A stretch of DNA of 7,781 bases, from IMG/VR virus record IMGVR_UViG_2600254997_000002. One strand, 5' to 3'. The stretch's first letter is position 1, and every line of letters starts with the position of its first letter. The notes under the pieces were generated by a model, which saw only the letters and a list, made by a program, of their open reading frames with translations, was not told the origin of the DNA and ran no database searches. Below are positions 3,852 to 5,501 of the stretch, one piece after another. The DNA comes from a virus (lineage: Monodnaviria; Loebvirae; Hofneiviricota; Faserviricetes; Tubulavirales; Inoviridae). Made by a program: the position numbers and the translations under genes.

Positions 3852-5501
3852 TCAGGACCGAAGAACAATAAAGAATGAAAGCATGGAGCCAATCAGCGTC
3901 ATAATCACCCTGAAAGTGGCCCTGACTTCATCGGTATCAAGCAGCACACAAAAAGTATCCAGTTGATAATCTTTATTCCAGATATTGAATGTAAAGACAG
4001 GACACTGCCCCCGTGGAATTGTCAGTGAAAAATCACGCGCAGAAGGCCACATATTCCACAATGGAGAAATGAATGATGAAGGCTCAGGAGATGAAATATC
4101 AGGCGTATCCACTGAAGGTGCAGTGCCAAAGTCATTTGACACAGTCACGTTAACATTTACCGTAGCATTACCTGTTACAGTGGTACTGCCAGAACCTGTT
4201 CCGACTCCAGCTCCTGTACCGCTACCCGTTCCAGTGCCTGTACCCGTTCCAGTACCTGTACCCGTTCCAGTACCTGTACCCGTTCCAGTGCCTGTACCCG
4301 TTCCAGTGCCTGTACCCGTACCGCTGCCTGTACCCGTACCGCTGCCTGTACCCGTACCGCTGCCTGTACCCGTACCGCTGCCTGTACCCGTACCACTGCC
4401 TGTACCCGTACCACTGCCTGTACCCGTACCGCTGCCTGTACCCGTACCGCTGCCCGTACCTCCAACGGGCTTAAAACCGGGGTCAATAACAGGAGGGGTA
4501 TATTTACCTCCAGAATTGCTGGTATCACCACCTGGTGTCGGAGGAATAGCAATAACACCAGATTCTGTAAAACTTGCAGAATCACCGATGCGGAGGTCTA
4601 CCGTAGAACGATAATTGTCTACGTCAGCAGAGGAATATTTCAATAAAAACGAAGATATCCCGCTATATTCAGAGAGGCCATCTAATTGTTCAGTCAGCCC
4701 GTTAAGAATATCTGCAATATCCTGAGATGCCAGATTATTTCCAGAGAAAGAAGGCACGTGGAGAGACGATGAGAATGGATTTTCAGTGGTTGCTGCCTCG
4801 CAAGTAGAATTACCGTCAGAATAAAACAGAACCTGACCGTTATCACAAAAAACAGAATCCTCACTTAACGTTACTGACCAGAATACAAACGAACTCTGGG
4901 ACCAGGAACCTCGAAAATAATAAGCGTAGTAGAATCTGTACCACTCATTATCAACGTCACTCTTCGGAGGAGTATAATAAGACGACTGAAGCGAGGATTT
5001 TTCTTCAGGAGGTAAGCACTGAATAACCCGCGCAGCAGCAGAAAACGGCGAAGTACTGGTAACGTAGCAATTATCAAACCCGCCATGCCAGGCCTTGACA
5101 CCCGCACTCATGGCTGGAGTGTAATAAAACGCGTTATAGCCGTTTTTATCTAAAACCAATTTTGCCACCTCCTCAGCGAAAGGCTTTCCTGCGGCATAAA
5201 TTCCAAGACTGACAGTAGTTACACCAAGACCGTAAGCCAGAGTACTCCACGACATTGCTGAAGCAGAAATTCCGGCAGATGCAGCATAATTTGATGCAAA
5301 AGACGCTGCCGCACGTGAATATCCTGATAACGTTGCCGAAATAGATGAGGCGCTGGCCCCCATTGCAGATAATTTGCGATTAATAATACCGGACAATTCA
5401 GAAGAAAATGTTGTGGTAGTCAGTGTCGCTGTTTCAGCACAGGCGTGATTTGTTAACAAAACGTACAATAGCGACACAGAAATATTTTTCAAAAAACTCA
5501 T
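3852..5501 (-). CDS. pIII-like adsorption / minor coat protein with Gly-Thr-Ser linker
   Basis: 549 aa. N-terminal signal peptide, roughly 100-aa linker of (GSGTGT)n then (GT)n, C-terminal hydrophobic anchor ([19 protein letters not shown]). Follows the major coat gene. Confidence 0.7.
4195..4462. repeat. in-frame tandem repeat (18-bp units degenerating to 6-bp units) encoding the pIII linker
   Basis: Repeated CCAGTGCCTGTACCCGTT / CCGCTGCCTGTACCCGTA units on the plus strand. This also generates the spurious PVPV (plus) and AAVRVQ (minus) ORFs in the track. Confidence 0.85.

What the first reader, a model, noticed from the sequence alone, without database searches (positions are those of the whole stretch)
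4170..4465. Near-perfect tandem repeat encodes the pIII linker: likely length-variable region
Seen in sequence: roughly 270 bp of 18-bp units (encoding GSGTGT about eight times) merging into 6-bp units (GT dipeptides about twelve times), all in frame within the pIII-like gene. The repeat is clean enough to produce long spurious ORFs on both strands. Established knowledge: pIII of Ff phage has Gly-rich flexible linkers between its receptor-binding and anchor domains. Inference: the DNA repeat is a replication-slippage or recombination hotspot, so linker length probably varies between isolates and may tune the reach of the receptor-binding domains. It is also a likely site of assembly collapse in short-read data.
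Basis: partly seen in the sequence, partly recalled or inferred. Interest (0 to 1): 0.45.

Follow-up and report, generated by a model that had tools for sequence, protein, structure and literature searches.

The report
Hypervariable repeat linker in phage tip protein
A clean 18-base tandem repeat inside the tip (adsorption) protein gene of an E. coli filamentous prophage encodes a floppy Gly-Thr/Gly-Ser tether, and almost every sequenced copy has a different tether length; this is a real but unsurprising coding minisatellite.

Summary
Window 4185-4460 (minus strand) is an in-frame array: 8 x GTGSGT, 5 x GTGTGT and a degenerate tail. The DNA period is 18 nt throughout, not 18 nt merging into 6 nt. 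It lies in a 549-aa gene at the pIII position of an Ff-like gene order.

The window is one unit of a dif-integrated, often tandem, E. coli filamentous prophage. In 36 copies from complete genomes and IMG/VR contigs the array has 27 DNA alleles in 13 length classes (186-330 nt), always in frame. The other 1374 nt of the gene has no indel and about 0.6% divergence. No two genomes share an array, even prophages 1-2 substitutions apart over 4 kb. Two alleles recur in independent assemblies, so this is not assembly noise.

Draft assemblies break at the array. Diverged lineages carry different Gly-Thr arrays at the same site. AlphaFold predicts residues 304-458 as disordered.

Homology to Ff g3p could not be shown; the pIII call rests on synteny and architecture. 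Whether length tunes reach is untested. It most resembles the 18-bp stalk repeats of staphylococcal ClfA/Fbl. Verdict: a new member of a known kind, of modest interest.

The parts
4185..4460 (-). In-frame (Gly-Thr/Ser)46 array, residues 348-439 of the pIII-like protein; the length-variable region
   Evidence: variable
4317..4460 (-). Eight 18-nt units encoding GTGSGT (codon variants E, A and C)
4227..4316 (-). Five 18-nt units encoding GTGTGT (variants B and S). The two S units (GGTACAGGTACTGGAACG) were seen only in this window
4185..4226 (-). Degenerate 3' end of the array ([14 protein letters not shown]). It is unchanged in all but two of the window-lineage array alleles; L008 lacks 6 nt (one Gly-Ser) of it
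3852..5501 (-). pIII-like minor coat / adsorption protein gene, 549 aa. It comprises a signal peptide (residues 1-22, [22 protein letters not shown]|E), folded N-terminal parts (about 30-300), a predicted disordered region (304-458) and a C-terminal domain
   Evidence: PHROG matches to the C-terminal part only
3855..4184 (-). Conserved C-terminal domain (residues 440-549): helix, beta-hairpin bracketed by the invariant Cys500 and Cys518, and a terminal hydrophobic helix (524-548, window 3858-3932)
   Evidence: 217 representatives at E<=1e-3, always at the C-terminus of their protein; alignment invariants; model
3547..3834 (-). pVI-like minor coat protein (DUF2523), immediately downstream
2477..3535 (-). 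pI-like assembly ATPase (Zot domain)
1221..2480 (-). pIV-like secretin
5811..6086 (-). Major coat protein candidate upstream of the pIII-like gene
   Evidence: phrog_2186 virion structural protein, E 4e-14; weak Pfam Phage_Coat_B match below its cut-off
3985..4614 (+). Spurious 209-aa ORF (Pro-Val repeat) created by the array on the opposite strand
4175..4585 (-). Spurious 136-aa ORF in another frame of the coding strand

Best explanation
The array is a coding minisatellite (VNTR). It encodes an intrinsically disordered (Gly-Thr/Ser)n tether in the pIII-like tip protein of a temperate E. coli filamentous phage.

The tether joins the N-terminal part (presumed receptor-binding, inferred) to the C-terminal domain that anchors the protein in the virion tip and inner membrane (inferred from architecture).

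Because the DNA is a near-perfect head-to-tail 18-nt repeat, it gains and loses whole units by slipped-strand mispairing during replication. It occasionally changes by 6-nt steps or larger block duplications, which suggest unequal recombination. Every such event keeps the reading frame.

The protein tolerates these changes, so alleles accumulate far faster than point substitutions. The observed window-lineage arrays stay between 62 and 110 residues, which suggests drift inside a permitted range rather than directional tuning.

Shown here: the repeat, the frame, the hypervariability, the unit-wise nature of the changes, the predicted disorder, and the recurrence of a low-complexity linker at this position across the family. 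Inferred: the slippage mechanism, the tether function, and neutrality within bounds.
For: Repeat and frame.

Gene context identical to the Ff order, with Zot, secretin, DUF2523 and coat.

Variability:
- 29 copies in 19 complete E. coli genomes plus the window give 22 array alleles and 11 lengths, while the other 1374 nt of the gene has no indel.
- With the IMG/VR contigs there are 27 alleles and 13 lengths.
- Over 4005 aligned nt of the pIV-to-pIII module outside the array there are only 79 variable and 9 gapped columns.
- 0 of 319 between-genome pairs share an array. This includes pairs 1-2 substitutions apart: L005/L013 186 vs 300 nt, L007/L015 258 vs 240, L001/L011 276 vs 258.

Unit maps: single-unit differences inside runs of identical units (C5 vs C4; B4 vs B3), a nearly constant degenerate 3' edge (F-G-H units; a 5' E or I unit in most alleles), and block duplications (AAB-E-AAA).

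Host flanks identical (0-2 SNPs per 5 kb) while arrays differ.

Alleles recur in independent assemblies (L021 = L022; L027 = L004).

Diverged lineages (46-64% identity over the N-terminal part or whole protein; C-terminal domain up to 95% identical) carry other arrays at the same site: period-12 GT arrays, a (GT) run of about 40 dipeptides, (GTGTTT)7 and a TSTGEG-type array.

Most, though not all, of the 36 remote relatives of the C-domain examined have some low-complexity linker close upstream.

AlphaFold: residues 304-458 have pLDDT below 50 and no secondary structure, flanked by folded parts.

Literature: Ff pIII domains are joined by flexible Gly-rich linkers, and the N1N2-to-C distance matters for infectivity (PMC10175506).
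Against: No sequence or fold similarity to characterised g3p proteins could be demonstrated. 'pIII' is therefore an assignment by position and architecture.

The structure model is of low overall confidence (mean pLDDT 55, shallow 22-sequence alignment), and low pLDDT is only indirect evidence of disorder.

No mutation was observed happening. Allele differences between genomes could partly reflect re-infection or recombination between co-resident prophages rather than in-situ slippage. The two copies in L002 differ by 8 substitutions in the rest of the gene and so are distinct lineages.

The bounded range (62-110 residues) could equally mean that length is under selection.
Confidence: 0.72

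Rival explanations
1. Adaptive tuning. Linker length (and the Ser/Thr mix) is under diversifying or host-specific selection. It adjusts how far the receptor-binding part can reach through capsule, O-antigen or periplasm, or how many of the five tip proteins can engage a receptor. The repeat then acts as an evolved 'tuning knob'.
For: Every genome has its own allele. Window-lineage arrays stay between 62 and 110 residues, with none shorter, which would fit a functional minimum. Arrays have been rebuilt with different units and periods at the same site in diverged lineages. In Ff the distance between the N1N2 and C domains must be maintained for high infectivity (PMC10175506). In the analogous ClfA stalk, repeat number affects adherence (PMC6533592).
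Against: No association of length with host lineage, integration site or replication module is visible in the small sample: both the dif-type and the IS110-type elements span 204-330 nt. Hosts with identical flanks carry very different lengths. High allele diversity is what a high mutation rate predicts without any selection. No functional data exist.
Confidence: 0.15
2. Sequencing or assembly artefact. The apparent copy-number differences come from mis-assembly of a repeat, not from biology.
For: Short-read assemblies clearly cannot cross the array. Many 'partial' proteins end 2-9 residues into it or start in its distal part. One IMG/VR contig has an ambiguous base inside its array (L031).
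Against: In 36 copies every length is a multiple of 6 and there is no frameshift. Tandem copies within one assembly are identical in eight of ten genomes. Identical DNA alleles recur in independent assemblies (L021 = L022; L027 = L004). Differences are whole units of specific sequence subtypes rather than random errors. The records are complete-genome-level assemblies.
Confidence: 0.03
3. Structured or modified segment. The (Gly-Thr/Ser)n stretch is not a passive random coil. It might form a defined element (silk-like beta or polyglycine-II-like bundle in the pentameric tip), or it might be a substrate for modification such as glycosylation, giving a function beyond spacing.
For: The strict alternation of Gly with a small hydroxyl residue is maintained in all alleles. 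Nearly all unit variants are synonymous or Ser/Thr changes. Five copies would lie side by side at the virion tip, by analogy with f1 (PMC10175506). Staphylococcal SD stalks are glycosylated (PMC3794999, title and abstract only).
Against: AlphaFold gives no secondary structure and pLDDT of 30-45 across the segment. Remote relatives use quite different low-complexity compositions at the same place (Pro-Thr, Asn-Pro, Gly-Ser-Asp, poly-Thr), which argues for a generic spacer. Maintenance of the dipeptide pattern is also expected from repeat homogenisation alone.
Confidence: 0.07

Closest known systems
Glycine-rich linkers of Ff (f1/fd/M13) gene 3 protein, and of IKe, If1 and Pf1 receptor-binding proteins
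   Same: A flexible low-complexity segment made of short peptide repeats. It lies between the N-terminal receptor-binding part and the C-terminal virion/membrane anchor of the tip protein. The gene has the same position in the genome (PMC10175506; PMC12477597).
   Different: The composition is Gly-Thr/Gly-Ser dipeptides, not (E)GGGS. There is one very long tether (92-residue array, about 155 residues predicted disordered) rather than the two shorter Ff linkers. The DNA is a near-perfect 18-nt array and is demonstrably polymorphic. No sequence or fold homology to g3p domains was detectable.
R-domain (Ser-Asp / SDSDSA stalk) of staphylococcal ClfA and Fbl adhesins
   Same: A dipeptide/hexapeptide repeat encoded by 18-bp DNA units, placed immediately upstream of the C-terminal anchoring region. 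It is described as a flexible stalk that extends the binding domain. It is highly length-polymorphic between strains, and most unit variants are synonymous. The variation is attributed to slipped-strand mispairing (PMC6533592).
   Different: That is a Gram-positive cell-wall adhesin, not a phage protein, with an acidic Ser-Asp composition and 9-52 units. A functional effect of copy number has been measured there, but not here.
dif-integrating filamentous prophages CUS-1 (E. coli K1), YpfPhi (Yersinia pestis) and CTXphi (Vibrio cholerae)
   Same: The prophage is integrated next to the host dif site, often as tandem copies. The phage carries inverted dif-like sites (PMC4266046). CUS-1 has a gene (puvA) described as a virion protein needed for receptor binding.
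   Different: [quoted passage not shown] This phage encodes its own secretin. The same structural module also occurs with two other replication/integration modules.
Thr-Gly repeat of the Drosophila period gene ('per hexamer' ACNGGN repeats)
   Same: The same dipeptide and the same degenerate hexanucleotide, with natural length polymorphism (own knowledge; a 'per-hexamer repeat protein' appears among the compositional hits).
   Different: An unrelated protein and organism. This is a resemblance of sequence type only.

Membership tests
Inovirus pIII/g3p-type tip (adsorption) protein | Gene lies between the major coat gene and the pVI-pI(-pIV) genes | tested here: met
   Order on the minus strand: Rep_trans, 111-aa ORF, small ORFs, coat-like 91 aa, 56-aa ORF, this gene, DUF2523, Zot, secretin
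Inovirus pIII/g3p-type tip (adsorption) protein | N-terminal signal peptide and C-terminal hydrophobic anchor helix preceded by a disulfide-bracketed beta-hairpin | tested here: met
   The N-terminus reads as a Sec signal ending in an A-X-A-type site (HACA|E); this was read from the sequence and no predictor was run. The model shows strands 503-507 and 510-514 between the invariant Cys500 and Cys518, then helix 524-548. f1 pIII is described with the same elements (PMC10175506)
Inovirus pIII/g3p-type tip (adsorption) protein | Low-complexity flexible linker between the N-terminal and C-terminal domains | tested here: met
   Residues 304-458 have pLDDT below 50 and no secondary structure. Linkers of various compositions occur in relatives
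Inovirus pIII/g3p-type tip (adsorption) protein | Detectable sequence or structural homology to characterised g3p domains (N1, N2 or C) | tested here: not met
   No Pfam family. PDB phmmer gives only compositional hits. The C-domain profile against PDB gives nothing. Foldseek against PDB and BFVD finds nothing at E<=0.001. The model quality is low, so the fold tests are weak
Inovirus pIII/g3p-type tip (adsorption) protein | Present at the virion tip and required for adsorption and infection | not testable with these tools
   Needs virion proteomics and genetics
Coding VNTR / minisatellite evolving by slipped-strand mispairing | Head-to-tail units of high identity | tested here: met
   Period 18, 13.2 copies, 96% matches, no indels
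Coding VNTR / minisatellite evolving by slipped-strand mispairing | Copy number differs between otherwise near-identical sequences, in whole units | tested here: met
   Differences are multiples of 18 nt (some of 6). Single-unit steps occur on backgrounds 1-2 substitutions apart
Coding VNTR / minisatellite evolving by slipped-strand mispairing | Change observed within a lineage over time (mutation rate) | not testable with these tools
   Needs passaging with long-read or PCR sizing
dif/XerCD-integrating filamentous prophage (CTXphi / YpfPhi / CUS-1 type) | Prophage abuts the host dif site and forms tandem arrays | tested here: met
   dif (1 mismatch to the canonical site) lies at the left junction in all nine loci scanned for it (L001-L003, L005, L008, L010, L011, L014, L018). 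Two copies lie in tandem in ten genomes
dif/XerCD-integrating filamentous prophage (CTXphi / YpfPhi / CUS-1 type) | Phage attP with paired inverted XerC/XerD-binding sites | tested here: inconclusive
   Two inverted dif-like sequences at about 866-893 and 932-960 flank a GC-rich palindrome. They were read by eye. An exact or 3-mismatch dif search found none
dif/XerCD-integrating filamentous prophage (CTXphi / YpfPhi / CUS-1 type) | Sequence relatedness to CUS-1 or YpfPhi | not tested
   No reference sequence was at hand. The INPHARED phage records hold no close relative: nothing by megablast, and the best Zot match is 39% identical

The most novel reading that the evidence does not exclude
The array is an evolved mutational 'tuning knob'. 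Its high slippage rate continually generates tip proteins of different reach (about 23-42 nm contour length for 62-110 residues at 0.38 nm per residue). Selection by host envelope features (capsule or O-antigen thickness, periplasm width, receptor depth) or by host immunity then picks the lengths. The linker would thus be a host-range or fitness determinant of a prophage carried by pathogenic E. coli.
Probability: 0.12. Interest if true: 0.55.

Novelty: new member of a known kind. Interest (0 to 1): 0.3.

Why it matters
Practical points:
- The array is a single-locus marker that separates otherwise almost identical prophages and host strains. No two genomes shared an allele.
- It explains why this gene is annotated as hundreds of 'partial' hypothetical proteins in draft E. 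coli genomes.
- Copy number at this locus should be trusted only when taken from long reads.

Biological points:
- The array is a natural series of linker lengths (62-110 residues) in the tip protein of a temperate inovirus from clinical E. coli.
- That series could be used to ask how long the tether between the receptor-binding and anchor domains must be. For Ff phage this has been addressed mainly with engineered constructs.
- The result also shows that the conserved C-terminal anchor domain, which has no Pfam family, defines a broad family of tip proteins. A low-complexity linker just upstream of it is common, and its composition turns over freely.

Tried and rejected
- GenBank phage records (INPHARED). 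Megablast of the whole window gave no match, as did tblastn of the whole pIII-like protein and of its C-domain. The best Zot hit is 39% identical, in uncultured gut inoviruses. No named close relative was found.
- Plasmids (PLSDB). Only short matches to the non-coding or regulatory part of the window, 569-1207.
- Pfam. Nothing for the pIII-like protein or its C-domain relatives.
- PDB by sequence. Only compositional matches to the Gly-Thr array. The C-domain profile found nothing.
The Cys-hairpin and anchor helix align as expected, but the probability is 1.2%, so this is not evidence of homology.
- Foldseek of the AlphaFold model against PDB and BFVD. No hit at E<=0.001. The model has mean pLDDT 55, so this is a weak test.
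- Word-index protein search with the C-domain alone returned nothing. This is probably because the cluster representatives are N-terminal fragments. The exhaustive HMMER search replaced it.
- The N-domain search found only the two E. coli clusters.
- Two scans of GTDB species-representative genomes found no relative.
- Hairpin-driven instability. The array folded as single-stranded DNA is no more stable than shuffles (z = -1.1). I dropped the idea that a special ssDNA structure drives the slippage.
- Exact or near-exact dif in the window: none within 3 mismatches. Only diverged dif-like sites were seen by reading.
- Association of array length with integration site or replication module: none visible in this small sample.

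Full report
**What the window is**

All long ORFs lie on the minus strand in the classical Ff order:
- a Rep_trans replication initiator (6612-7781);
- a 111-aa ORF of single-strand-binding-protein size (6239-6574);
- small ORFs;
- a coat-like 91-aa protein (5811-6086; phrog_2186 'virion structural protein', E 4e-14);
- a 549-aa ORF (3852-5501);
- a DUF2523 / pVI-like protein (3547-3834);
- a Zot-domain pI-like ATPase (2477-3535);
- a secretin (1221-2480).

The window matches about 100 complete E. coli genomes in part. Fifteen of them match over at least 80% of its length, at about 98.5% identity. It has no close relative among GenBank phage records.

In the chromosomes the element abuts the host dif site next to hipBA. 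In ten genomes it is present as two tandem copies. Window positions 1 and 7781 map to the same base of the tandem unit. The window is therefore exactly one genome unit, cut at the Rep start codon.

**The observation**

Tandem Repeats Finder reports 4223-4460 with period 18, 13.2 copies, 96% matches and no indels, score 343.

Read in the frame of the 549-aa ORF, residues 348-439 (window 4185-4460) are 46 Gly-X dipeptides. They form eight GTGSGT units, five GTGTGT units and a degenerate tail [14 protein letters not shown].

The '6-bp units' are not. The distal part is five more 18-nt units (GGT ACA GGC ACT GGA ACG), so the DNA period is 18 throughout.

**Test of the main prediction: length varies between isolates**

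I fetched 19 loci from complete E. coli genomes. I cut out the array between conserved anchors.

- In 29 copies (28 from those loci plus the window) there are 22 distinct arrays and 11 lengths (186-330 nt), all in frame.
- The other 1374 nt of the gene has the same length in every copy and differs by about 0.6% on average.
- Seven more copies from IMG/VR viral contigs raise this to 27 DNA alleles and 13 length classes in 36 copies.
- Over 4005 aligned positions of the pIV-to-pIII module outside the array there are 79 variable and 9 gapped columns.
- None of 319 between-genome pairs shares an array.
- Prophages that differ by only 1-2 substitutions over those 4 kb still have different arrays: L005/L013 186 vs 300 nt, L007/L015 258 vs 240 nt, L001/L011 276 vs 258 nt.
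- Host chromosomal flanks that are identical or nearly so (0-2 SNPs in 5 kb) go with different arrays.

**How the array changes**

Writing each 18-nt unit as a letter gives maps typical of a minisatellite:
- The degenerate 3' end (F-G-H) is nearly constant. Most alleles also begin with an E unit (a few with I).
- Runs of identical units (C, A, B/D) expand and contract.
- Single-unit differences occur on near-identical backgrounds: E-C5-A4-B-D-B vs E-C4-A4-B-D-B, and a run of four B units vs three.
- A few alleles are shifted by 6 nt (L008, L010, L013).
- Some alleles carry block duplications spanning the Ser-type/Thr-type boundary (…A-A-B-E-A-A-A…), which suggest unequal recombination as well as slippage.
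- Nearly all unit variants are synonymous or Ser/Thr changes.

Because every step is a multiple of 3, keeping the frame is automatic. It is not in itself evidence of selection.

**Artefact?**

Tandem copies within one assembly are identical in eight of ten genomes.
- In L010 the two copies have the same length and differ at two bases inside the array.
- In L002 the two copies differ in array (240 vs 294 nt) and also by 8 substitutions elsewhere in the gene. They are distinct phage lineages, not one copy that slipped.

Identical DNA alleles recur in independent data sets (L021 = L022; L027 = L004). I see no sign that the variation is assembly noise.

The protein database holds this gene mainly as 'partial' fragments from draft E. 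coli assemblies. N-terminal pieces stop 2-9 residues into the array (P0121, P0123, P0131). C-terminal pieces start in its distal end (P0124, P0127, P0130, P0132). The sister lineage shows the same pattern (P0002, P0139, P0140, P0142). One fetched contig ends 27 codons before the array. The failure mode is contig breakage rather than collapse.

**Is it a pIII linker?**

For:
- The gene position.
- An N-terminal signal-like sequence ([22 protein letters not shown]|E, read from the sequence).
- A C-terminal domain found in 217 representatives of 1.84 billion proteins (E<=1e-3), always at the very C-terminus of its protein, most of which are 400-600 aa.
- Invariant Cys500 and Cys518 and a terminal hydrophobic helix in that domain.
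- An AlphaFold model with folded N-terminal parts, no structure and pLDDT below 50 for residues 304-458, then helix, beta-hairpin and a long terminal helix. These are the same elements described for the f1 pIII C domain (PMC10175506).

Against:
- No Pfam family.
- Only compositional PDB hits.
- No profile hit in the PDB.
- An hhalign match to the f1 C-domain that aligns the expected elements but has probability 1.2%.
- No Foldseek hit in PDB or BFVD.

I therefore call it 'pIII-like' by position and architecture, not a demonstrated homologue of g3p.

**Comparative view**

Diverged lineages (46-64% identity over the N-terminal part or whole protein) have other Gly-Thr arrays at the same position:
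- period-12 GT arrays of 10-21 copies (L029-L031);
- a (GT) run of about 40 dipeptides (L032);
- (GTGTTT)7 (L033);
- a TSTGEG-type repeat (P0003);
- a GS/GT/GD mix in a Salmonella protein with an unrelated N-terminus (P0005).

One relative has no repeat at all (L034).

More remote members of the C-domain family often have Pro-Thr, Asn-Pro, Gly-Ser-Asp or poly-Thr linkers close upstream of the domain, though some have no obvious low-complexity stretch there. A low-complexity spacer at this position is thus common in the family, and its sequence is replaced freely. This fits a generic tether better than a specific structure.

**Mechanism**

My best account is a disordered tether encoded by a slippage-prone 18-nt array, drifting within a tolerated range of lengths (confidence about 0.7).

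At 0.38 nm per residue, the figure implied for the f1 L2 linker (PMC10175506), 62-110 residues correspond to about 23-42 nm of contour length. The alleles therefore differ nearly two-fold in potential reach.

Whether that matters is untested. The adaptive 'tuning' reading remains possible (about 0.15). I found no association of length with integration site or replication module.

A special single-strand DNA structure does not explain the instability (z = -1.1).

**What it resembles**

- The functional analogue within phages is the Gly-rich linker of Ff g3p.
- The closest formal analogue is the R-domain of staphylococcal ClfA/Fbl. That domain has 18-bp units encoding a dipeptide or hexapeptide stalk just upstream of the C-terminal anchor. 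It is highly polymorphic with mostly synonymous unit variants, and the variation is attributed to slipped-strand mispairing and used for strain typing (PMC6533592).
- The element as a whole behaves like the dif-integrating prophages CUS-1, YpfPhi and CTXphi (PMC4266046). Relatedness to them was not tested.

**Verdict**

The feature is real, the central prediction is confirmed, and one descriptive detail is corrected. This is a new, well-documented example of a known kind of feature. It is useful as a marker and as a natural linker-length series, but not surprising. Interest 0.3.

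Noticed in passing
window 866-960; L001 12083-12110: Host dif (AGTGCGCATAATGTATATTATGTTAAAT) lies at the left prophage junction. The window carries two inverted, diverged dif-like sites (about 866-893 plus strand, about 932-960 minus strand) that flank a GC-rich palindrome (about 893-931). This is the folded single-strand attP layout described for CTXphi and proposed for YpfPhi.
   Followed up: partly
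L004, L006, L007, L015-L017, L019 (IS110 type); L010 (third type): The same structural module (secretin through coat, about 98-99% identical to the window) is joined to three different replication/integration modules. One is Rep_trans with dif integration. One is a 2-kb 'replication endonuclease' plus an IS110-family transposase and a phospholipase D gene, inserted at ybiB/hcxB, yahJ/yahK or ilvI/leuO. One is a 'phage/plasmid replication' protein plus SSB plus an HTH protein. This is a clear modular mosaic.
   Followed up: partly
window 1 and 7781; 6612-7781: The window is exactly one genome unit. It is cut at the Rep ATG, which overlaps the stop codon of the upstream 65-aa ORF (1-198) by one base. 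The Rep ORF here is 389 aa, against 398 aa annotated in relatives, so its 3' end differs.
   Followed up: partly
L002 (NZ_CP086625), copies at locus 15001-16614 and 22714-24381: Two tandem prophage copies in one chromosome differ in array length (240 vs 294 nt). They also differ by 8 substitutions in the rest of the gene and in the region between the copies. This looks like co-integration of two phage lineages rather than duplication of one.
   Followed up: partly
L018 14890-18278; L007 7370-8629: Signs of prophage decay. An IS21-family element (ISEc62) is inserted in the secretin gene of the second copy in strain 48956. The secretin gene is split into two ORFs in strains 100117 and 100248.
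   Followed up: no
window 569-840 and 1015-1207: The non-coding or regulatory part of the window matches small 2.6-2.8-kb E. coli and E. albertii plasmids (87-89% identity) and about 100-kb plasmids (84-85%). In PLSDB the matched stretch carries a 'hypothetical protein' in one plasmid and no annotated feature in the others.
   Followed up: no
window 2724-2743 and 2801-2861: Two weak tandem repeats lie inside the pI/Zot gene: period 9 x 2.2 copies, and period 25 x 2.4 copies (77% matches). They fall in the region encoding its membrane segment and its Ser/Pro-rich part.
   Followed up: no
proteins P0129 and P0134 (draft E. coli assemblies): Some copies of the pIII-like gene carry frameshifts upstream of the array, so the products end in out-of-frame sequence. 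These are either pseudogenes or sequencing errors.
   Followed up: no
L031 about 2110-2260: An IMG/VR contig of the sister lineage has an ambiguous base (translated as X) inside its period-12 array. This is a visible trace of assembly uncertainty in the repeat.
   Followed up: no
one search hit list: Gly-Thr-rich low-complexity matches include many cyanobacterial TonB proteins and a group of about 330-aa proteins (P0012-P0018) with a long GT/GS/GE C-terminal tail. Gly-Thr spacers therefore recur in other envelope-spanning or phage-like proteins.
   Followed up: no
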